Notes under the pieces: model-generated
Database searches by the model: none
What the model was told of the DNA's origin: nothing
The model's input: only the letters and a program-made list of their open reading frames with translations
Source of the DNA: Octopus vulgaris
Taxonomy: Eukaryota
DNA: 64,000 nucleotides
Assembly (NCBI GenBank): GCA_951406725.2
Contig: OX597815.1
Location: 65,968,001 to 66,032,000 of the forward strand
Direction: 5' to 3'
Program-made: the position numbers and the translations under genes
Part shown: one piece after another, positions 19,967 to 51,944 of the stretch
How the letters are laid out: each line of letters starts with the position of its first letter
Numbering within the stretch: position 1 is the first letter of the stretch

Positions 19967-21270
19967 CTAAGAGGAGGGGCCTGTGCTGAGTCCGTGCGGG
20001 GTATTGGTCTGTAGAGTGAAAATGAGCCGTTGCTCCAAGTGAAGCCTGGATTGTAGAGGACCGGTGTGTGGGGCGAGACCAAACACAGAGATGTCATCGT
20101 GGGAATGGCTGGCCGAGCAGAAGTGACGTGCGACGGGAGAATTAGAACGCAGACGAACATCCCTTAGATGTTCGGCGAATCGGTCTGCCAACCGGCGACC
20201 CGTCTGTCCTACATACAGCATTCCGCAGAGGTTGCATTTAATGCAATATATGAGACAAGATGAAGTGCACGTAAAGGAATGTCTAATACGTACAGTTCGC
20301 TGGTTGGAACCGGTGACAGCAGTGGTGTTGGTGATGAAGGGGCAGGTGTTGCAGCGGGATCTGGAGCACGGGAAGGATCCGTGTGGGGCTGAGGGGGAAG
20401 AAGAGAGGATGCTACGGACCAGGGGATTACGTAGATTCCGGGCTCGTTTGAAGGAGGACAGGGGTGGGTTGGGGAAAATGGGGCCGGTCGTGGGATCGAG
20501 CTGGAGACGACGCAAGGCACGTAATATCTTCCGACGAAGGGGTAGAGTAGAGGGGTGGAAAAGGAGGGGAAAGGGGGTGCGGTTGGGGGGTTGGTGAGAG
20601 GAAGGAGAAAGGGCGGTGGTGCGGTCGATGCGACGAGCGCGGGCGAGGGCGTTCAAGACCAGGGTTGGTGGGTATCCTCGATGCCTGAACAGGCGGGCCA
20701 GGTATTGAGACTGGGTCTCGAAATCCTGGTCGCGACTGCACAAGCGTCGGAGGCGGAGGAACTGGGAGTAGGGGATGGCCCGTTTGGTGTGGAAGAGATG
20801 GGAGGAGGAGAAGTTGAGATAGAGGTGGGAATCCGTGAGTTTGAAGAAGGCGGAGGTGGTGAGAGAGTGGGAGGGGTGGTCGATGCGAAGAGAGATATCA
20901 AGGAAGTTAACAGAGGTATTGGAGATAGTGGAAGTGAATTGGAGAGAGGGGTGGAAGTTAGAGAGGAAAGAGATGAAGTGGCAGAGTTGTTCGCGGGAAA
21001 GGGAGGTGGCGCCTAGGTTGTCGTCTATGTAGCGACCGTATAGTTCTGGGGTCGGCCCGGAGAATTAGGAGAATACTTGGGCCTCAATGTAACCAACAAA
21101 GAGATTGGCGAAATTGGGGCCCATTCTCGTACCCATCGCGACCCCAGACAGCTATTGGTACGTTTCCCCGGCGAACGTGAAACAGTTGAGGGTGAGGACG
21201 AGCTCTGCCAGGCGTAGAAGGGGGGGGGGTGGGGGGGGGGGGTCGGGACGACGGTCGAGGAAGTGTTGTA
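19967..21270 (-). pseudogene. PLE reverse transcriptase/GIY-YIG endonuclease, disrupted
   Basis: RT motifs and C-terminal GIY-YIG; stops in RT part. Confidence 0.9.
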
Positions 21271-22147: not shown

Positions 22148-22542
22148 CTAGCAGTATCGCCCGGCGTTGCTCGGGTTTGTAAGGGAAATAATTATATAAG
22201 CATTTTTATAGATGTAAAGTATAATAGCCATCTCAATATGGCTAACCACAAAGGGGGAGGGGTGTTACTGTAGCTTTTTACGTTCTGAGATTTAATAATA
22301 AATTTTAGAGAGTTACTTCCCTTATATATGTCAAAAATGGATTAAAAATGGGAAAAATTGATGGTAAATTTTTTTTTAAATCGTAGACTCATCGTAGACG
22401 CGCGCTAATACCCAGACGGTCTTGATATGAATCACGACTATAAGATACCCGGTTTTGGTTAAACTGCACCGCAAAATGTGGGAGTAGTTAGGAATCTAAA
22501 TCGTAGGAGACAGACACACAACCTCACTTTTATATATAAAGA
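22148..22542 (-). mobile_element. Non-autonomous Helitron
   Basis: 5' TCTTTATATATAAAAG, 3' hairpin CCCGAGCAACGCCGGG then CTAG, inserted between A and T; same 3' end at 50375. Confidence 0.85.
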
Positions 22543-22605
22543 TTTCCTCTATTTACATAATATTGAGGTCCCTTTCTTTCTTTTGTTATCTTACTGTTTT
22601 TACCA

Positions 22606-22664
<59 letters not shown>

Positions 22665-22672
22665 TATATATA

Positions 22673-22995
22673 GTTACAGAGATGTACTTGCATAGCAAGT
22701 GACTTGATCTGAGATCGTGTGCTGGAACGAAAACAGTTGCAGCGTTGAAGGTGTTTATAAGCCATTTAAGAAACACACAAAAACCGTTAGATTCACTTCA
22801 ACATTTAAATTTAATTTGTCAAAATATTTTCGTCGCTTTGAGACCGCGACCTGTTAGCACGATATTTTTGTCAGTGAACAGGTCGCGGTCTCAAAGCGAG
22901 GAAAATATTTTGGCAAATTAAATTTAAATGTTGAAGTGAATCTAACGGTTTTTGTGTGTTTCTTAAATGGCTTACAAACACCTTCCACGCTGCAA
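22673..22995. mobile_element. Fold-back PLE-type insertion in (TA)n
   Basis: Inverted arms ~22737-22855 / ~22876-22995; left arm has an extra ~65-nt tail. Confidence 0.85.
22867..22917 (+). ncRNA. Hammerhead-like motif with G3-C8 swapped core (GUGAACA)
   Basis: TTTGTCA-GTGAACA-G-GTCGC ggtctcaaa GCGA(C/G)-GAAAATATTT-TG(A/G)CAAA. Confidence 0.65.
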
Positions 22996-23008
22996 TATAT
23001 ATATACAC

Positions 23009-23046
<38 letters not shown>

Positions 23047-23689
23047 GTATGTGTGTATATGTGTATGCATGTATGTGTGTGTGTGTGCGTGTCTGTGCTT
23101 GTGATTGTCCTCCACCACTGCTTGACAACGAATGTTGGTTTGTTTACATCCCTGTCACCTAGTGGTTTGACAAAGGAAACAGATAGAATAAGTACAATGC
23201 TTACAAAAATAAAACTGGAGTTGATTCATTAAACTACAATTCTTCAAGGCATTGCCCCAGCATGGCCACAGACCAATGGCTGGAAAAAGCAGAAGAATAA
23301 AAGAATACATTCTCTGCTTTGGTCTTATGTTCAAGGCATGAGAAAGCTTGAGTTTACATGAGAAGGCCTAACAGACCTGGTAGAAACAGCAGCCAAATCT
23401 CCCTCAAATCACACCTTACTGTCTTATGTATGTATATATATATATATATATATATACAAGCCACTACGGTTATTTAATGTAAAGTCTTCCTCAAATCACT
23501 CTCGCTATTTACTCTCTTCCAAGAACATTTTCACTCACTCTTATCTCTTAGCTTCCCATACATTTTACTCATGTATCTATCAGCGTCATAGACAGAAACA
23601 AATATTACATCGTCATCGCCATCGCCATCGCATTCTATTTTCTACCTGTCAACACACAGTGAATTAGTTTCACTTTATTCGTTGCACAC

Positions 23690-23934
23690 TGTGTGTGTGC
23701 GTTTGCGTGTGCTGTAAACCAGACTAAGAAAAGCATTTGACATACACACCAGAATGTGAGTTTTCTGTAAATTTTGCTTAATTGGAGTTTAAATTTTAAA
23801 AACTGGACCTGGCATGACCCGATGCATTCTACTCTTAAAAATGCTAGGTAAATTGTAATTGAAGAAATCCTATATTGTAGATTTCTATAAGTGACAAAGG
23901 GAGGCAGATAAAATCTGCCTTTTATAATAAGAGA
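23690..23934 (-). mobile_element. Helitron-like 5' end fragment
   Basis: 5' TCTCTTATTATAAAAGG; homologous to 51700-51944. Confidence 0.65.
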
Positions 23935-26139: not shown

Positions 26140-27115
26140 ATGGTATGCGTAGAAACAGATGTGGTAGCAGATGTGGTAGAGTGGTGGGTTCATTACTGTT
26201 TGGTACACAATCAAGAAGCAACATTATAGAGCAGAAAAAGTAGTGGTGGTCCGAAAACGAAGGTGCGTGTGCGTGTGTATACGAGAGCATGTATGTGCGT
26301 GTGGAAGAGGGATGGTGACCTTGACGTGTGCGTGTGTGCTTGTGTTGGTGTATGATGGTATGGGAGCTGGGAAGTAGTCAGTACTAGTGTGTGCGTGGTG
26401 GAGTGATGTGATGTGGTGTGGTAGCGTTGGGATGTGGGGGAGGCGAGAGTGGGGTGTGGATTAGGCTGAGGGGGTAGAGGTGGGATATGTGGGAGTGGGT
26501 GGGATGGATAGGGAAGGTGAGGTTGGATTGTGTAGGGGTGGGGTTACGAGGGAGGGGTAATGATGAAGGGAGAGGGGAAAGGGAAAAGGGAGGTAGGAGT
26601 GGAGAGAAGAGAAAAGCAGAGTAGGAGTGAAGAGAAGAAGTAGAAGTCGGAGCGAGAGGAGAGATGGATGGGAGGAAGTAGGTGTAAGAGGAAGAGAGGA
26701 GAGGGGAAGAAGATTAGATAAAGAGAGGAGGAGAGTTGATCTCATGTGGCGCAAAGGGGCGAAGAGAGAAGATTAATCCCTATTCACGGCGCAAACGGGT
26801 GTCCGGATGGCCCCTGTGCAAGGACAATCCGAACACAGACAGATGTTGCAAAGAGTGACCGGTAGAGCGGAAATGGCGTGAGAGCGGGGTGTCATTGCCG
26901 AGCCGGATTTCTCGGAGGTGTTCCGCGAATCGGTCAGCCAAGCGTCGTCCCGTTTTCCAGATGTATAGAGAAGAACAGAGAGAACAAGAGATGCAGTAGA
27001 TGATATTGGTAAAAGTGCAGGTGAAGGAGTCAGTGATGTGATAGGGTCGATGATGTGTGCCGGTGAGGAGGGTGGTGTTGGAGAGGTAAGGGCAACTGCG
27101 GCGGCGTGGGCGGAT
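26140..27115 (-). mobile_element. Decayed PLE fragment (GIY-YIG and 3' UTR)
   Basis: 26770-27115 homologous to 35045-35410 with frameshifts. Confidence 0.85.
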
Positions 27116-27370
27116 ACATACATAATCTTAGTTGATCGAGTGCTTGTCTACTTCTTGAAGCTTTACTACACATACACACGCGCGCGCGCGCACGCACACA
27201 CACACACACATTATATATGTATATGTTTGTGTATAAAGAACGATTATCGGTAAACTTAAACAAAAATTTTATAATTATGAGTATAATTATAATTAGGGTT
27301 CATATAAAATATGTGTGTTATATATATATATATATATGTGTGTGTGTGAACATATATATATGAATGTGTA

Positions 27371-28493: not shown

Positions 28494-30020
28494 TAATAGG
28501 CCCCAACTATGCGAACCTGTTCGTTGAGGCCCAAATATTCTCAAGTTTCACTGGTCCCACTCCCGAACTATATGGCTGTTATATTGACGACTGTATCGAT
28601 GCGACCTCACTATTCCGCGAACATCTAGACTCCTTCCTCTCTTTTGTCAAATCTTTCCATCCTGCCTTCCACTTTTCCTGCACTATCTCTGACACCTCTG
28701 TCTCTTTTTCATGACATTTCGGTGAGCATTCATCACTCCACTCTCACCATCTCCATCTACTACAAACGCAGACTCTCACTCTTACCTCAACTCTTCCTCC
28801 CACCCTAAACACACCAAGCTTTCCATCCCCTATTCCCAATTCCTCCGTCTACACAGGCTCTTTAGTGACGACCATGACTTTGAGACTCAGTCTCAACTCA
28901 TGGCTCGCCACTTCATCCTACGTGGATATCCCCTTACCACTATCCAAACCGCCTTTGCCAGAGCACTTCTGTGGACCGTATATCTGCTCTCTACTCTCGA
29001 ACCCACCCTGCCGTCTCTCGCCTCCCATTTCCCCTAACCTACCACCCCACTACCCTACCTCTCCAGCGCACCATTCTTCGAACCTTCCGGCGACTTCAGT
29101 CCGACCCGTCCACTTCACACATCTTCCCTAACCGATCCCTCCCCTCCTTCAAACGAGCCACAATCTACGAGACCTCTTGGTCCACAGCTTCTTCCCTAAC
29201 CCAACCTCCCAACCCGGCTCGTTCCCCTGCTCCCGCCCACGCTGCCGCACTTGCCCTTACCTCCCCAACATCACCCTCCTCACCGGCACCCAACATCACC
29301 TGCACTCTTCTCTTCATTCCTACCCACCTTCTCCTTCCTCCTCTTCATCGTCACCCCTCCCTCGTAAGCCCGCTCCACCCCCTACACATTCCCCTCACAC
29401 CTTCCCTATCTTTCTCTAGCCCACCCAACCCCATCCCTTACACCCACTCCTACATATTCCACCTCTACCTCCACCATCCGCCTACCCATATACCCCACCT
29501 CAACCCCCACTCTTGCTTTCCCCACTCTCGCCTCCACCACCTCCCAACACCATCACACCACACCACACACCACTACACCTTACACCACCATACCACAAAC
29601 ACATCACATCACACCACCATACACGCATCAGCACTGACCACTTCCGAGACCCACATTTTCACACCTACAAATACGCACACACACTCATCGAGATTACCAG
29701 CCCTCTTCCACACGCACATATAAACTCTCCTATACACACGTACGTGTGTATAAGAGAGTTTTCAGATCACCACTACTTTATTAGCTCCCCTTCTCCCTAT
29801 ACCTCCTGTGTGACCCTTTTGTCCGGCATTCGCCATGATAGATCGCTAGCCACTACACATTCTTTGTTTTCTCTCTTTGTTTCTTTCAGTGTTCCTTTAT
29901 GTGGAAGAGCGTAGGCCCGAAACGTTAAAGACTTTTTCACATCCCGAGTGTTATACTAATACATCTGTTTGTTGTCTACACCACCTGTCTTCATCTTTCG
30001 TTTTTTTTGTGAATTCTCCC
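28494..30020 (+). mobile_element. Decayed PLE with RT remnant, GIY-YIG internally deleted, degenerate HHR-like motif 29895-29930
   Basis: GPNYANLFV and YIDD; homology to 34509-35100; flanked by (TA)n. Confidence 0.88.
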
Positions 30021-30449: not shown

Positions 30450-31077
30450 TAGATTGCAGTTCAAATATAGATTGGTTCAGCAAAAAATGTACACTGTCCA
30501 GTGAGGGATAAATATCATTTAATATACACATCACAAAAGAGCTACTAATAACTTCATGCTTTTGATTCACATTAAATTGGCAAATTTATATAATGCACCA
30601 TATATCTAAAAGCAATCTTTAAGACTCAGTTCATACGTCAGATGTATTTAAAAACCAGGCCGCTGGCCTATGAGAAAACATGAGAAAATGCGACAAGAAA
30701 ATCTGTACTCTTTCTACTGACTATTATACCTTACATCATGAAATAAACCTTCGTCTTCTATGAATTGGAATAAATGGATCTTAGCCATTTCATATCAAAA
30801 AATTGAAAGGCTACAAGAAATTGTAATTTCAATTCTAAATTCAGTGTTCAATCTCCATTACAACATGATATTCTATAAGAAATATGAGGTGTACGAGAAA
30901 CGACTGAATAAATCTCATACGGACTGTCAGCTCACGACTCGTGATTTCACGACCCTTTGTATGTTTTGTTATGTCTCTGACCAAGATAAATTCTCTTTCA
31001 GTTCTATATTTAAGAGATGAGGAATTATGTACATTATTTACATTTGACGGATATTTATTCTCATCTTGTTTGTTGTT

Positions 31078-31123
31078 AACACAACGTTTCGGCTGATATA
31101 CCCTCCAACCTTCATCAGGTGTA
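31078..31123 (-). ncRNA. Minimal type I hammerhead, canonical core
   Basis: ACAC-CTGATGA-A-GGTTG gagggtatat CAGCC-GAAACGTT-GTGT. Confidence 0.8.
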
Positions 31124-31195
31124 TTGGGGAAATTTCGAACTTGGGTTCTCATTCCTAAGGTATTTTTAGATATTATTAATATTATTATTATTATT

Positions 31196-32070: not shown

Positions 32071-32117
32071 TCCAGAAATACCTTAGGAATGGGAATCCAA
32101 ATTCGAAATTTCCCCAA

Positions 32118-32163
32118 GACACCTGATGAAGGTTGGAGGATATATCAGCCGAAATGTTGTGTT
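32118..32163 (+). ncRNA. Minimal type I hammerhead (helix III C>T change)
   Basis: GACAC-CTGATGA-A-GGTTG...CAGCC-GAAATGTT-GTGTT. Confidence 0.7.
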
Positions 32164-34420
32164 AAAAACAAACAAGATGGGGGACAAATATCCGTCAAAT
32201 GTAAATAATGTATTAATTCTCTTTGTACTAATTTTCCTGTATGTTCGGTACTGAACGTTCTCCAGATGTTGTTAGGAAAATTTTCAGCGAAGAATTTTTT
32301 TTTTACTCGTCTGCTCAACATGAGAAAACCAAAGATTTTAGCTCTAACTCACCTCTGAGTTTCGCGAAAAGGTTAAATAAGATTAAATTGGTAACTAATT
32401 GATGTTTACAACCTTACTACACTCCCTCTCCTTCACTCCCCTCCCTCTCTTTCCCGCGCTCTCTGTCTCTCTCCCTGTCACTTTCTTCCGCCCCCGTTCG
32501 TTTTCTCTTTTTCCGCTCTCTCCACCCTCCTCACTCCCTCTCCCTCTTTCTCCCTTACCTTACCTCCTCACTCCCTCTCCCTCTCTCACTCACCACCCTC
32601 TTCACTTTCACTCCCCCGCTCTCTCTCTTCTCTCTTTCTCCCTTTCTCTTTTTTTCTCTCTCTCTCTCTTCCCTCTCTCGCACTTTCCCCCCAATCTTTG
32701 TTGTTTATTCCTCAATTTCTTTCCAAATTAAAATCTAATCTGAGAAACTGATTAATTTTTCCAAACGACGTTCAAGAAGTTTACTTTTTATCATAATTAT
32801 CATTATTTATTTATTTTGTTTTGTACTTTGGCATCCTTGAAGCATCCATTAACTGCTAAGAATTTTGTGGGGTCTGGTCAGGGCTATTTGAGAGAAATTC
32901 ATTTAATCCAAATCTCTGCAATATTGTCAGCTGCTGTTCTGCAACCAATGTGTTTCATTTATAGTTAATGTTTTATAATTACTTTCAGATCAGAGAAAAC
33001 GAAATTAACCTTTGATTACACTTAATTAATGCCATTTTATAACTTTAAAAGGCAGGGGGCAGTAAATAAATAAAAAAAGTAATGGCAATAACATCTTGGA
33101 AATTCTCAAACATGTTTTTGTATAAAATATTTGAAAATTGGTTATTTATCTGATAATTTAGACATTCGTTTAATCGTTATTTTTAAGTGAAGAAAAAACT
33201 CCTAATCAACCAATAAACAGCCAAAACTACTATAAACACAATCGCTAATCTATAAAAAAAAGTGTTCGAACTCTAAGCTAATAGAACTACTGATCCACAA
33301 TTTTCCGTTGTGTTGTGATGAGAGAGAAATAATAAAATAAAACTTTAGTTTCGTGTAACTAAATATAATGTCAAAACGTTCGATATTATAGGGAAAGGAA
33401 CGTTAATAGTAAGCAGCGTTCATGATTTTCTGGAAGAAACAATGGGTGTAGCGAATTATGTTAAAATATCTGAACGGAGATTTGAAACTGTTTCGGATTT
33501 ATCACCGCAAATGTTTACTTCATATATCACGGCTCTCGTTCTTAACTTTGAGATAATAATTGTTTCTGATTTAGACCCAAAGCCAGAAATTTGGAGGAGG
33601 AGAGGATAGGCAAGTGTAACATATAAAAATATTTAGGGGGAAAATGCATTGCACAGTATTTGGGCATCAGCTTTTGAATTTAAAGTTTATACATTATACA
33701 ATTTCTATTTGGTTTATAACTAAGAAATATATTTTCTAACTGTTATAGTTTATCCATGAGAGATGGAATTTCTCATCCGCTTACTTTAGAATTAAGCGTG
33801 GACTTTAGAATTTCTTTGACTCGTTGTGATAAAAGGGCCGTTTATCGTACAAAAATTATGTTTTTTTAAGTAGTTTTCTTACGGAAAACTCCGAGTCCTT
33901 TTAATCCAAATATGACAAAAATCCTATATATCTTCTAATTTCGGTTAACATGACATATTTTCCATGAAAGTACAACCGACCTGAATGTATTTAGGCGGTG
34001 GGAAGAATGCAGAAATTTTAAAAGTCGACAGGACATATGACAGTTAATAGCTGTCAAATATCATTCAAATATAATGAACAGTCATCAGAATACGAAAAAA
34101 ATTATCTTCATGAACTTAGCTTAATTATACTTTATTAGTGTTTAAGTCTTTTACACCAGGCCACCAAAAACTGACTCAAAATTAAATAGAACACTCGGTG
34201 TACGCCAGAAATCCTGTCGAACTCAATAAAAAAAAAATCGGTAACAGTGACAAATACATTCACTAATATATCAGAAAACCCTCCCAGCTGAATAAAAACT
34301 CGGTGTGTGCAAGTGAAACAGTTTTAAATTGAAATAGCCATCTGTGCATTATTATTAATGTATTTACACCACAAAGACATACATTAAAAACACTATCAAT
34401 ATATATATATATATAATTAT

Positions 34421-34508: not shown

Positions 34509-36430
34509 ATTTCGACATTTCGGTTAGCATTCTTCACTCCACTCTTACCACCTCCATTCACTACAAACACACAGACTCACACTCATACCTCAACTTCTCT
34601 TCCTCCCACCCAGAACACACCAAGCTTTCCATCCCCTATTCCCAATTCCTCCGTCTACGTAGGCTCTGTAGTGACGACCATGACTTTGAGACTCAGTCTC
34701 AACGTATGGCTCACCACTTCACCCTACGTGGATACCCCCTCACCACTATCCACACCGCCCTTGCCAGAGCACGGTCCGTGGACCGTGTATCTGCTCTCTC
34801 TCCCCGAACCCGCCCTGTAGTCTCCCGCCTCCCTTTTCCCCTCACTTACCACCCCACGACCCTACGTCTCCAACGCACCATTCTTCGAGCTTTCCGTCAT
34901 CTCCAGTCCGACCCGTCCACTGCACACCTCTTCCCTAACCGACCCCTCCCCTCTTTCAAACGAGCCCACAACCTTCGAGACCTTTTGGTCCATAGCTCCT
35001 TCCCTGACCCTACCTCCCAACCCGGCTCGTTCCCCTGCTCCCGCCCACGTTGCCGCACTTGCCCTTACCTCTCCAACACCACCCGCCTCACTAGCACCCA
35101 CCATCGACCCTATCCCATCATCCACTCCTTCACCTGCACCTCCAGCAATATTATCTATTGCATCTCTTGCTCTCTCTGCAATTCCTTGTATATCGGACAA
35201 ACGGGACGCCGCTTGGCTGACCGGTTCGCGGAACACCTTCGTGACATCCACCTTGCGAACGACACACCGGTCTCACGCCATTTCCGCTCCACCGGTCACT
35301 CCTTGCAACACCTATCTGTGTTCGGTTTGTCCTTACACAGAGGCCATCCGGATTCCCGTTTGCGCCGTGAACAGGAATTAATCTTCTCTCTTCGCTCTTA
35401 TACGCCATTTGGTCTCAACTCTCCCCCCTCCTCATCTAACCCCCTCTCCCCCTCCTCACCTATCCTTTCTCCCCCCGACCCCTACTTCTACAGTCCTTCA
35501 TCCTTTCACCCCTACTCCCATTCCCTTCTTCCCTCTTTCTCCCTCCCTCTTCCCCTTCCCTCTGCTCCCTCACTCCCTCTCTCCCCCTCTCCCTCTTTCC
35601 TCCTTCACCCCCCTCCTCCCCTTCCTTCTCCCCCATCCTCTCCTCTTCCCCCTTCTCCTCCCCCTCTTCTTCCCCTCGCCTTCTCTCCCCCCTCTTCTCC
35701 CCCCTCTTCTCCCCCCTCTTCTCCCCCTCCCCCTCTTCTCCTCACTACACCACATGACTTTACACATCACATCACATATGATGTGCCATACTAATACACA
35801 CACCAACTAATACATACTAATACGTACTAATACATACCAGTACATACTAATACTTACACCAACCCTATACATACACACGTCCAGACCCCGCATACGCACT
35901 TATACTCTCTCACACACACACACACACACCTATACATACCAATACGTACTAATACATACTAATACATACTAATACATACACCAACCCCATACATACGCAC
36001 GTCCAGACCAATCTTACGCACTAATACTCTCTCATACACACACACACACACACACACCCCCTTATACATACTAATACATACACCAACCCTATACATACAC
36101 ACATCCAGACCCCTCCCACGCACTTTTAGCTGGTCCCTCAACCCTTTTATCAACCCTATTATCTCCCCTTATTTCGCTCTCGCGTCTCATGTTTGATCTT
36201 TGACCTCTGGCCGAAATCAGATCGCCATGTTGATTCGTTAGCTACTGCACGCATTTTTTTCTCTCCTTCTTTCTGTGTTTTTCTCTCTCTGTGTATCTTT
36301 CTGTTGAAGAGCGTAGGCTCGAAACGTTAAAGACTTGTTTTATTTATATTTCCTGAGCGCCATACTAATACAATTGTTCGTTTGTTTTCCACCTGCCTTC
36401 GTCTTTTGTTTATTTTCATAAAGCTTCCCG

Positions 36431-39340: not shown

Positions 39341-42026
39341 ACAGATTGAAATACAGTTAGATCTTGTGTCGAAAAGATTTTATCTCTTGAAATATGAAGA
39401 TATTAAGGTATTGTTAATGGTAGTTTTCAGACGTTTCGGTCAACCAACACTCACCCCAGTTATTACTGGCACTAAGCCACACTCAAAGAACAGGTCTGAA
39501 TTTATTCTATATGGTAGAAATTACATCTGTTAATTTGTCTTTGATCTTTCTTTCACTGAAATTAGGCCTTGTTGGGTGACAATAGATTTTTTAAAATTAT
39601 GTATGATGAAAATAATGCACTCGAGAGTTGGTAACCATTTCGACCGAACATCACTAATTTCAGGCATAAATTAATCTATCACATTTCATTACCATATCTC
39701 ACTCACACACATGAATACGTGCGCGCGCGTGTGTGTATGTACATGTGTGTGTGTGTGTGTGTGTACAAGTAAACACATACACAAGATTAAGGCTTTGATT
39801 TAATTTATATATCAGCCATATATTTATAACTACTAACAAGCTTTGAAGAGTGCACCGAATGACTAAGCCGACCTTTCAGGTGGTGGTGATGGTGGTGGTG
39901 TAAGCGATAGTGGTGGTATAAGAGGTGCTGTTATCAATTAATCATTTCAAGAGAACAAAGAAAATACCAACAACCGATATTCTATAGACGGGGGACAGCC
40001 ATTAAACAGATCTATTTCTGCATATAAGACTCCATTATTGAAGAGTGACATTATATGTACTTTAAAGACCCCCATTTAATATCGATGATTAGTTGACGTT
40101 CAACTTCTTTTCTTTCTTCTAACTGCCATTTTAGCATTTCTTTTGATTGATAATTAAATTATTTTTATTTTTATAAATACAATTATTTCAATTTCCTTTT
40201 AGTGTTTAGAGGGATTTTTTCATTTATTTTTATTTATTTACTTTGCCTTAATTCTGTGTAGCAAAGAAAGAAAAGAATCCCAGTAGATTATGCGTCAGAG
40301 TAGAAAACAACTGCATCCTCAGTGGTATCCATTAATGGGAGATTAGCGATATTAACTTCTAAAAATGATGAAACAGTAACTGATGTTCGCGCAGTAATTA
40401 TTAGTTAACGTACATGAAATAAAATAGTTACAACTTGCAGCGTTCTTTTGCTTTAGGGACATATAAGCGCGGGGTTGCGAATAAATGAAAAGGAAGTCGG
40501 GAATGTAGAAAAATGAACTTAGCTACTCTGAGAAAACGAAATGTATATATAAAAGCTGAAAAGTAGATTTTAGCTGTATGTTTGGCAGGTCAACACGCGA
40601 ATTCACATCAAGAATCTTGCAAACCATATACAAAAATGAAAAATAGTTTATTAAACGTAATTATTATAGATTTCTGTTTTTATTTCTCTACAGCACCATT
40701 TAGTTAATTTATGAAGATAGCCTCAGAAAAGTTGTCGAATATGTAAGGAACAACTGATAGTAAATGGAAGGATCTACATAGAAACGAAATGAACTCCACA
40801 AATGTCTACAACAATTTTAAAGCAATTAGTGTGTCTTAATAAAGTATCTTATTGTTTATAATATATGCTTTAAAATGGTAATTAAGTCAGTTTAATTAAT
40901 CTTGATAATCACAGGCTCCCTCATTGTTTCAGAAAGTATTATTTACAGTACATGTGTGGAATCACTGAACGTCTACAGAAATTATAAGGTTTTATGATTA
41001 TAAAATATACTATAAAATATGCTATAAAATGGTAATTAACTAGGTTTAATTAATCATTGTAGTCGAGTAAAATGATGATACATCTATAAATTGGATAAAT
41101 GTAGTTTCTCGTTTCTATATGGACCCTTCCGTTGTGTACCAGAAGTTACTGTTTATGCACAAGTTCCACAATGTTATCTGGTATAAACGTAGAAAATAAA
41201 GCACTTCTTTTATGTAAAAGTAATTGCAAATTAAAAACTCATTGTGAATAGTAAACAAAATATTATTTGAAAACTTGCCAAAGAGAAACTTATAAATTTA
41301 TGAATGAAGTTGTATGTTTGCTCAGTTACTTCTTCCTTTCACTTCATACGTTCAAGCATTTCTGCTGCTCTACTCTCCTAATTAAGAATAAATATTAATT
41401 TCTGAAACACAAGGACGTATATTTTGATAATGTAACAGTTCATTATATCGAACCAGTAATTTGACAAAAGGGTGCAAAATAATAATAATAATCCTTTCTA
41501 CTAAAGGCACAAGACCTGAAATTTTTGGGGAGGGGACTAGTTGATTACATCGACCCCCAGTGTTTCACTAGTACTTAATTTATGGACCTCGAAAGGATGG
41601 AAGGCAAAATCGACCTCCATGGAATTTGAACGCGAAAGGAGAAATGCCACTAAGCATTTTGCTAAAGCCTGTCTCTAGGTTAACGTCATACTCATATAAA
41701 ACCAGAATGGCATTGAATATTTTGGGGATCTTTTGCTAGAGAAAATAGCGCTCCCACATTCATGAACCTGGAACCCATATTGGCACTGAATATCTTGCTT
41801 TAGCTTGTCTCCAGATCATGTCAGTATGGTAGAGAGTGTCTGTGATATACTGAGCAAGCCCTACTTAGTAGGAGAGCGGCACGATGAGGATGGAAACCGC
41901 GGACATGAATCCGGGTGAAACCGACAGCTGATGCGCGAGCATGTATATATATATGTATGTGTGTGTATGTATGTATGTGTATATGTATATGTATGTATGC
42001 ATGTATGTATGTATGTATGGATAGAC

Positions 42027-49810: not shown

Positions 49811-50159
49811 GTAAATATAATATGTGACAATTATTCGGTAGCCACGATAAAACTCTGAGTTTCGGATGCCGAGGTGGAAATCCACACCACCATCTCTCCA
49901 GTTATCCGGCCATTGGAAAAACGCTATGGAAAAAGACCGTTATACAAAGGAGGGAAATTACTCTTTGTATAACGGTCTTTTTTCATAGTGCTTTTCCGAT
50001 GGCCGAATAACTGAAGAGATGGTGGTGTGGATTTCCACCTCGGCATCCGAAACTCAGAGTTTTTTCTTATTTACATAATATTGAGGTCTGTTTCTTATTT
50101 TCTTATTTACATAATATTGAGGTCTCTTTCTTTCTTTGTTATCTTAACGTTTTTTACCA

Positions 50160-50161
<2 letters not shown>
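49809..50161. mobile_element. Fold-back PLE-type insertion in (TA)n with HHR pair (49846-49906 -, 50006-50066 +)
   Basis: Arms ~49849-49948 / ~49963-50065; (G)ATAA-CTGAAGA-GATG...CATCC-GAAACTCAGAGTT-TTATC; tail also solo at ~22546-22608. Confidence 0.8.
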
Positions 50162-50223
<62 letters not shown>

Positions 50224-50374
50224 TTAAATTTAAAATAATAACGTTTGAGATACTGCAACAGACTAAGTAGAAGAAAATATGTTTAGTTATTTGTGTTTGC
50301 GCATGTGTTAATAATCTTATTTAGATATAATAATAATAAAATGAAGTATATAAAGAATATTAAAATATAAAATA

Positions 50375-51944
50375 CTAGCAGTATCGCCCGGCGTTGCTCG
50401 GGTTTGTTTCGACCCGCTGGAATTGTAATTTTGAAAAGTAAAAATTTTGTGAACATTTTTCTGGTCGAAATATACCGAAAAGTGGCGACACAGCAGTGAA
50501 AAAATCGTAAAAAATAAGGATTTTCATAGAAAAAAGCAGCTTTTTGATGTAAATAATTTTTGGTGTTAACATGGTCCGATTTGAATTTTATGTTCTACGG
50601 AAGGAAGAGCAACCCTTCTTCTATCATACTCTCAATTTTGGTCAACTTGCGCCGCAGGGTCTCGGAGGAGATAGTGTTAGTTGAAGGTTACCAAACGTGG
50701 CGCACACAGACAACTTTAGCTTTATTTAGAGATAACACACACACATTAATACACATACATAGACACACACATGTATGTATGGATGTATATATGTACATCT
50801 GTCCACTTCTTGCAATATTTTTATCCTTCACTTCCTACAGACACACACACACACCTTATTAGCTTACAATTTCTTTCTGTCAACAATTGACAACAGAAGT
50901 ATGCTCGCCAATTAATACTACCAAAATTTAACGACAGAAAGTAAATTAAAAACCAATTTACCTTTTCTGTATTGTTATGGCAATCCGACCGTCGGTGTGT
51001 TTTTGCAAATGTGTTCGAATGAGAAGTGAGTTGTGTTTGGCGCCTTTTTTACTAATAACAAACACACACGTGTGTGTGTGTTTGAGTGTTTGTATGTAGT
51101 TGTTTGAAACGTTTGTGTTTGTCACTGTCATATATGTATGTGTATGCGTGTGTGTGAGGAATGGCAAACCAGATAGATAGCGCGCGAAGTTCTTTTGAAG
51201 TTCGCGCTCCGCTTGTGTGTGTGTGTGTGCGTGCTTTAGGTACACAGCACAACATTACTCTCTCTGTCTCTTTACACACACTATCAAAAGCACTTCACTT
51301 ACACACCACACTTTCTGTGTCGCACATCCCATCAAACACACACACACACACTCACGCACGCACACATGTACATCAATGCTTTCGGAGTGAAATGTTAAAA
51401 TATTGAGTTTTCTCGAATTTTGTCTTAATTGGGGGTGAAATTGAAAGAAATTTTGTATGGCATGACCGAATGGAAGTACTTGTAAAAATCATAGGTAAAC
51501 TGTAATTGAAGAAATTGTGTGAGGAGTAAATAGTTATGTATTTATTTGTTTCTGTTTGCTGTTTTTTTTTGAGTAGTGGTTTAAGGTACACTTCTCTCGT
51601 TTTATAGAAATACTTTCACTTTAATCGTTGCACACTTGCAAAGACAAAGGAGGAGAAATTAGGGTGATAGCGTGATTGAAGCAAATCGCTCCGTTTTTGT
51701 GTGTGTGTGTGTGTGCGTGTGCTGTAGCCCACACTAAGAAAAGCACTTCACTTACACACCACAATGTGAGTTTTCTTTAAATTTTGCTTAATTGGGGTTG
51801 AAATTTTAAAAACCGAACCTGGCACGACCCGATGCATTCTACTCTTAAAAATGCTAGGTAAATTGTAATTGAAGAAATCCTATATTGTAGATTTCGATAA
51901 GAGACAAAGGGTGGCAGATAAAATCTGCCTTTTATAATAAGAGA
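50375..51944 (-). mobile_element. Helitron-derived region (element 50375-50732 plus second 5' end at 51944)
   Basis: 3' hairpin+CTAG identical to 22148; TC-starting 5' ends at 50732 and 51944. Confidence 0.7.

What the first reader, a model, noticed from the sequence alone, without database searches (positions are those of the whole stretch)
22815..22917. Natural-looking G3-C8 swapped hammerhead core (GUGAACA)
Seen: 7-bp helix I, 5-bp helix II, GAAA and palindromic AATATT helix III surround GUGAACA; C8 is present in both arms. Established: C3-G8 form a tertiary Watson-Crick pair in the active HHR. Inference: the two deviations are exactly compensatory, suggesting a selected variant that standard searches miss.
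Basis: partly seen in the sequence, partly recalled or inferred. Interest (0 to 1): 0.8.

Follow-up and report, generated by a model that had tools for sequence, protein, structure and literature searches.

The report
Swapped-core hammerhead in octopus Penelope retrotransposon
A jumping-gene family with thousands of copies in this likely octopus genome carries a hammerhead RNA motif whose two paired core letters are swapped (G3-C8), while related families have C3-G8 or U3-A8, so the pair is likely kept by selection; self-cutting is untested, and the copy in this window is damaged and predicted to be buried in a long hairpin.

Summary
The motif is real: a minimal type I hammerhead at the pLTR of a Penelope-like retrotransposon (PLE). 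G3-C8 is family-wide: 2,833 of 3,165 pattern hits, with no C3-G8 hit. It lies about 1 kb behind an RT-GIY-YIG ORF in long copies. A sister family (55% protein identity) has C3-G8 at the homologous place, and old relatives have U3-A8; helices I-III also covary. This supports compensation, but on few independent events, and cleavage is untested. The window copy is a poor example: helix II is 4 bp plus a G.G mismatch, it sits in a 119-bp hairpin, and it was multiplied as cargo of a non-autonomous Helitron. 'C8 in both arms' is not independent evidence. Natural U3-A8 and engineered G3-C8 are published; I found no natural G3-C8 in the searches named, with key papers unread. This scan noted G3-C8 hammerheads before in phages and protist PLEs (unchecked notes). 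Verdict: new variant of a known kind.

The parts
22148..23934 (-). Non-autonomous Helitron (1,787 bp) carrying the PLE insertion as cargo; 5'-TC, GC hairpin about 11 nt before 3'-CTAG, inserted between A and T
   Evidence: at least 40 near-identical copies; A before CTAG in 27 of 27 scored ends, T after the other end in 22 of 25 (the other 3 are tandem junctions)
22673..22995 (.). Small PLE insertion in (TA)n: two 5'-truncated pLTR copies in inverted orientation, forming a 119-bp hairpin with a tail of about 64 nt on one side
22856..22995 (+). pLTR copy 1: holds the hammerhead motif and ends at the family's first 3' end (..GCTGCAA)
22673..22855 (-). pLTR copy 2 (inverted): begins at core position A6, keeps GCGAC and TGACAAA, ends at the second 3' end (tail)
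22867..22917 (+). Minimal type I hammerhead motif: helix I 22867-73 with 22911-17; predicted cut after 22910
22874..22881 (+). Core GUGAACA (G3 = 22874, C8 = 22879) plus extra G between 9 and 10.1
22882..22900 (+). Helix II and loop; C11.1 is G here (22900), breaking the G10.1-C11.1 pair that the family has
22901..22910 (+). GAAA, palindromic AAUAUU (helix III, predicted to pair between two molecules), U17
   Evidence: PMC4209133
22673..22765 (-). 31 open codons, likely the start of the PLE ORF (homologous to the sister ORF's N-terminus)
   Evidence: junction to the rest of the ORF not seen in this family

Best explanation
This is a damaged copy of the minimal hammerhead motif that a Penelope-like retrotransposon family carries at its pseudo-LTR, and the family's core has G3-C8 in place of C3-G8, a swap likely kept by selection so that the motif would still self-cleave slowly. 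Shown: the motif's anatomy; G3-C8 across the family; its place about 1 kb behind an RT-GIY-YIG ORF; C3-G8 and U3-A8 in related families; the Helitron around this copy. Inferred: cleavage after UUU needs a dimer or the element's protein; reverse transcription starts at two sites inside the ORF start on uncleaved RNA, giving the short copies, the tail and the inversion; a Helitron then captured one such insertion and multiplied it; this copy is inactive.
For: G3-C8 in 2,833 of 3,165 hits by subtraction, C3-G8 in 0. Of 8 loci picked by protein match alone, 5 show the core and all 5 have G3 and C8. GIY-YIG over the Pfam cut-off. Sister family at 55% identity over 815 aa: C3-G8 in 93 of the first 100 listed of 4,614 hits (hand count). 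In 9 aligned rows the 3-8 pair is CG 3, GC 3, UA 2, unpaired 1; 10 of 15 pairs have changes on both sides; slid controls score far lower. In an intact unit, helix II pairs form at probability 0.99 or more and helix I pairs at 0.65-0.97. The extra nucleotide, G10.1-C11.1 and palindromic helix III are listed hallmarks of PLE min-HHRs (PMC4209133). The engineered C3G/G8C double mutant partly rescues a PLE hammerhead (PMC11167929). PLE hallmarks: inverted pairs in 51 of 108 loci, two 3'-end peaks about 60 nt apart, flanking direct repeats of 9 nt or more in 19 of 79 loci and simple repeats on both sides in 22 of 79.
Against: No cleavage data. The 9 rows were chosen by me and are related (3 from one family), so G3-C8 is one evolutionary event; the U3-A8 rows are single decayed copies. 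The swap needs two transversions through a mismatched state. The sister's youngest form has C at position 9 (82 of 100 listed), so core letters can be lost in an actively spreading family. Only 2 aligned pieces from 108 loci start at the cut site, and PAc inserts without cleavage in vitro (PMC11167929). The extra base is G, whereas the published min-HHR consensus has H, though G occurs in some listed PLE hammerheads. C8 to G is unexpectedly frequent among copies (43 of the first 100 listed non-C8 hits, hand count; background 29 of 240 changes at C/G). No full-length copy joining pLTR and ORF was found in this family.
Confidence: 0.72

Rival explanations
1. The motif descends from a hammerhead but no longer cuts in this family. 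G3 and C8 were fixed by drift in the source element and happen to pair; the fold is kept for another reason (protein binding, translation or transcription signals) or simply inherited.
For: Cleavage is dispensable for PAc insertion in vitro (PMC11167929). Copies derive from uncleaved RNA. The sister family spreads with A9 changed to C. Given two changes, a Watson-Crick outcome has about a 1 in 3 chance (inference).
Against: Within the family's consensus all other core letters are kept, while the DNA around the motif differs strongly between families. No family with a fixed single change at 3 or 8 was seen; the one unpaired row is a decayed copy. Common subfamily differences fall in loop II and outside the motif; the one in helix I keeps pairing as G.U.
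Confidence: 0.23
2. The hammerhead reading is a chance pattern produced by the palindromic sequence of a fold-back DNA element or MITE.
For: The interval lies in a 119-bp inverted repeat; no Rfam match.
Against: The motif exists in copies without an inverted arm, sits behind an RT-GIY-YIG ORF, and is homologous to fully canonical CUGANGA hammerheads in the sister family; 0 hits in 40 shuffled windows.
Confidence: 0.02
3. This particular locus, or the Helitron that carries it, uses the ribozyme.
For: At least 40 near-identical Helitron copies keep the core.
Against: G10.1-C11.1 is broken here; forcing the hammerhead fold costs about 63 kcal/mol against the hairpin and helix probabilities are 0.00 in the full insertion. 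The copies are young and near-identical everywhere, so keeping the core says nothing about selection.
Confidence: 0.03

Closest known systems
[quoted passage not shown]
   Same: Type I layout, extra nucleotide between 9 and 10.1, G10.1-C11.1, short palindromic helix III, place in the pLTR, thousands of dispersed solo copies and close pairs on opposite strands
   Different: Core is G3-C8; the only 3-8 covariation in the parts read is U3-A8 (Schistosoma). Extra base is G (their consensus H). No cleavage data here.
PAc (Poseidon of Anolis) hammerhead and tail mechanism (Frangieh et al. 2024, PMC11167929; read parts 1-2 of 4)
   Same: Hammerhead at the pLTR-ORF junction, two 3' ends inside the ORF start, AT-rich targets; their engineered C3G/G8C mutant has the same core pair and is partly active
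   Different: There the swap is a laboratory mutant; here it is the natural family state. The ORF starts 56 nt after the cut site here, not at stem II. The protein has a CxxxCxxC linker and a Nematis-like endonuclease layout (by eye only).
Natural U3-A8 hammerheads (Perreault et al. 2011, PMC3088659; read section 8 and passages)
   Same: Natural covariation of the 3-8 tertiary pair
   Different: U3-A8 is reachable by transitions through a U.G wobble; G3-C8 needs two transversions and is not mentioned in the section read.
Non-autonomous Helitrons (features recalled, not read)
   Same: 5'-TC, 3' hairpin and CTAG, A|T target, tandem copies, captured host DNA
   Different: It is only the carrier; the autonomous RepHel partner was not sought.

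Membership tests
PLE minimal type I hammerhead | Three-way junction closed by helix I | tested here: met
   7 bp in window and family; folds in an intact unit; covaries in relatives
PLE minimal type I hammerhead | Core letters CUGANGA | tested here: not met
   GUGAACA; 0 C3-G8 hits in this family
PLE minimal type I hammerhead | Watson-Crick complementarity at 3-8 | tested here: met
   G3-C8 in 2,833 of 3,165 hits; CG and UA in relatives
PLE minimal type I hammerhead | G10.1-C11.1 and helix II | tested here: met
   Met in the family (3,165 hits); not met in the window copy (G.G)
PLE minimal type I hammerhead | GAAA, palindromic helix III, NUH site | tested here: met
   GAAA, AAUAUU, UUU
PLE minimal type I hammerhead | Location in the pLTR of a PLE | tested here: met
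   About 1 kb behind the ORF stop in L339, L340, L341, L343, L344, L351, L352, and about 2.4 kb in L347
PLE minimal type I hammerhead | Self-cleavage | not testable with these tools
   No raw RNA reads were offered; contigs cannot show ends
Rfam hammerhead families | Covariance-model match | tested here: not met
   the sister copy is also missed
EN+ Penelope-like element | RT followed by C-terminal GIY-YIG in one ORF | tested here: met
   PF01541 23.1 bits over cut-off 22.6; RT motifs by eye and E=2e-9 to a PLE RT; Pfam RVT_1 itself not hit
EN+ Penelope-like element | Tail, inverted 5'-truncated copies, AT-rich or (TA)n targets | tested here: met
EN+ Penelope-like element | Clade (Nematis, Neptune or other) | tested here: inconclusive
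   Compared by eye with supplement alignments only; no tree with reference PLEs
Non-LTR retrozyme | Head-to-tail tandem monomers and circular RNA | tested here: inconclusive
   No tandem of the short unit seen in the printed flanks of 60 loci, not counted by script; circular RNA not testable
Helitron (carrier) | 5'-TC, 3' hairpin, 3'-CTAG, A|T target | tested here: met
Helitron (carrier) | Autonomous RepHel partner | not tested
   no search made

The most novel reading that the evidence does not exclude
One clade of animal PLEs has sampled three of the four Watson-Crick pairs at hammerhead positions 3-8 (C-G, U-A, G-C), and the G3-C8 form is a working natural ribozyme present in thousands of copies. 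Selection keeps the catalytic conformation in vivo although cleavage is dispensable for insertion in vitro, and a large hidden class of swapped-core hammerheads exists in animal genomes.
Probability: 0.5. Interest if true: 0.6.

Novelty: new variant of a known kind. Interest (0 to 1): 0.42.

Why it matters
The 3-8 pair forms only in the catalytically active hammerhead fold (established knowledge, recalled). Its covariation among related retrotransposon families is therefore evidence that selection acts on cleavage itself. That bears on an open question: what PLE hammerheads do, given that they cut poorly in vitro and are not needed for insertion in vitro. It also gives a natural set (G-C, C-G, U-A, and C-G with C9) for direct assay, and shows that CUGANGA-based genome screens miss whole families.

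Tried and rejected
Naiad or Hydra clade: rejected, the endonuclease is C-terminal and the listed octopus Hydra and Naiad sequences differ. Tandem arrays on C17 as full-length elements: they hold no PLE ORF next to the unit and look like segmental duplications. The 781-aa two-ORF PLE as partner: no DNA similarity to the unit; it has its own U3-A8 motif. A stand-alone SINE-like element: rejected once long copies with the ORF were found. A G3.G8 source subfamily: not supported, since G8 occurs on several subfamily backgrounds and matched in both arms in 1 of 2 scored G8 loci; the excess is unexplained. Metagenome pattern scan: 120 hits, none similar to the unit at E<1 by blastn. Related loci: none in prokaryote genome contigs, 1 weak hit in viral contigs, not followed. 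Read laying: the raw DNA run gave 0 reads (no test); contigs of two other organism labels and one guessed RNA run hold the family, with no difference at 3 or 8 among the 40 listed (10 not shown). The sharp 5' boundary of short copies fits either a 3' splice site (branch point, pyrimidines, CAG; 554 hits) or a transcription start with a copied cap G; not resolved. Papers not held: Lunse et al. (PMC5785218), Hammann et al. 2012, Przybilski and Hammann 2007; any of them could already mention natural G3-C8. One supplementary file of PMC4209133 was not searchable.

Full report
Observation. Two corrections are needed. An extra G follows A9, and helix II on this strand is 4 bp with a G.G mismatch at 10.1-11.1. 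The interval is also the centre of a 119-bp, 97% inverted repeat (fold z = -32). The second arm starts at A6, so its C8 is a second copy of the same template and not independent evidence. A relaxed descriptor hit once in the real window and in 0 of 40 shuffled windows. Rfam has no match.

Outer layer: a Helitron. The hairpin lies inside a 1,787-bp repeat (22148-23934) with at least 40 near-identical copies. On the minus strand it begins TC and ends with a GC hairpin and CTAG. An A precedes CTAG on the + strand in 27 of 27 scored ends, and a T follows the other end in 22 of 25; the other 3 are tandem junctions. These are Helitron features (recalled). The identical copies of this hairpin are therefore cargo and say nothing about selection on the ribozyme.

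Inner layer: a PLE insertion. A pattern with positions 3, 7 and 8 free found 3,165 places. 230 have G3 with a base other than C at 8, 102 lack G3, and 0 have C3-G8, leaving 2,833 G3-C8 (89.5%). The window's GCGAG form has 131 hits under a slightly different pattern. In 108 non-Helitron loci, 51 have an inverted pair and the 3' ends fall in two peaks about 60 nt apart (the 8 Helitron-borne loci were dropped, and most loci were selected by patterns inside the unit). Of 79 loci, 19 have a flanking direct repeat of 9 nt or more and 22 have simple repeats on both sides. Inverted truncated copies and a one-sided tail are described for PLEs (PMC8557442, passages; PMC11167929, parts 1-2 of 4).

Autonomous partner. 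Extending upstream led to long copies with an RT-GIY-YIG ORF ending about 1 kb before the motif: 6 of 14 fetched regions, open frames up to 1,025 aa, GIY-YIG over the Pfam cut-off, RVT_1 not hit. Of 8 regions chosen by protein match alone, 5 showed the core and all 5 had G3 and C8; 1 was partial and 2 had no hit within 1.55 kb. No copy joining the pLTR to the rest of the ORF was found in this family.

Covariation between families. A relative labelled Octopus vulgaris by its source (P0002) matches this genome at 100% and marks a sister family, 55% identical over 815 aa. Its motif at the homologous place reads CUGAUGC G GUCAC..GUGAC GAAA GAACU U. Of the first 100 of 4,614 hits, 93 are C3-G8, 4 U3-G8, 1 A3-G8, 1 C3-A8 and 1 is a decayed copy of our family; 82 have C9, 15 A9 and 3 U9 (hand count). 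The last 31 codons of our unit match the sister ORF's start (44% for typical copies; for the window copy 68 of 5,000 shuffles scored as well), and the two 3' ends fall at matching codons. Using that N-terminus as bait among stored loci gave 10 places that I inspected. Five had a readable new motif (L335, L246 C3-G8; L263, L011 U3-A8; L295 C3-A8, decayed), two were further sister copies, and three had none. In the 9-row alignment the 3-8 pair is CG 3, GC 3, UA 2, unpaired 1; 81% of cells pair, 10 of 15 pairs change on both sides, and slid controls give 33-45%. The rows are related and hand-picked, so these are not probabilities. A distant 781-aa PLE family also has U3-A8 at its pLTR.

Mechanism. 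Shown: anatomy, family consensus, position, sister states, carrier. In an intact unit, helices I and II are the predicted fold. Inferred from PMC4209133 and PMC11167929: the motif would cut slowly after UUU, as a dimer through AAUAUU or helped by the element's protein; reverse transcription starts at two sites in the ORF start on uncleaved RNA, which fits the lack of a 5'-end peak at the cut site (2 pieces from 108 loci). The engineered C3G/G8C double mutant partly rescues the PAc hammerhead while single mutants are dead (PMC11167929). I put about 55-60% on the family motif cleaving detectably. The window copy is predicted inactive: broken 10.1-11.1 pair and about 63 kcal/mol in favour of the hairpin.

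Results against. G3-C8 is a single fixation event. The sister's most common form has lost A9. Cleavage is dispensable for PAc insertion in vitro. C8 to G makes up 43 of the first 100 non-C8 hits against a background of 29 of 240, which I cannot explain. Rfam misses the sister motif too. Read laying gave no test of RNA ends.

What is known. Natural U3-A8 is published (PMC3088659 section 8; PMC4209133). G3-C8 appeared only as an engineered variant (PMC11167929; PMC3884650, passages). Searches for natural G3-C8 or an octopus PLE hammerhead of this kind found none (supplement look-ups), but the library is partial, three relevant papers were not held, and one supplementary file was unsearchable. 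I also saw part 1 of 5 of bioRxiv 10.64898/2026.07.22.740005 and passages of PMC6765202; neither bears on 3-8 in what I saw. Earlier notes of this scan report G3-C8 motifs in phages and protist PLEs (unchecked); none resembles this sequence.

Verdict. A real PLE hammerhead motif with a family-wide swapped core, supported by sister families with two other Watson-Crick pairs; activity untested; this locus is a dead passenger. New variant of a known kind, interest 0.42.

Noticed in passing
window about 31075-31127 (-) and 32114-32165 (+): Two canonical CUGAUGA minimal hammerheads of another family, on opposite strands about 1 kb apart.
   Followed up: partly
window 20153-21202 (-), 34511-35299 (+), 28768-29034 (+), 26855-27118 (-): Decayed remnants similar to the 781-aa PLE protein.
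   Followed up: no
window 40592-40636 (+): Short remnant resembling the N-terminus of the sister PLE ORF; no readable hammerhead upstream.
   Followed up: partly
window 50097-50407 and 51607-51941: Further pieces of the same Helitron family, without the hairpin.
   Followed up: no
L248-L259: Young two-ORF PLE (479 aa and 781 aa, overlapping frames) whose pLTR motif has a U3-A8 core, in the youngest copies with G10.1.U11.1.
   Followed up: partly
L359-L361: Sister PLE with an intact 1,312-codon frame and tandem copies; its commonest form has C instead of A at core position 9.
   Followed up: partly
L039:1556, 1575, 1595: A-to-G differences at about 3-6% in a guessed RNA run against 0.5% or less in two other runs; may be A-to-I editing of inverted copies, but runs are from different samples.
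   Followed up: no
family core position 8: C-to-G change about 3.5 times more frequent among deviants than the background share; unexplained.
   Followed up: partly
L307-L336, boundary about 20 nt before helix I: Branch-point, pyrimidine tract and CAG directly before the sharp 5' end of short copies; several short copies begin GAG there. Splice acceptor or transcription start.
   Followed up: partly
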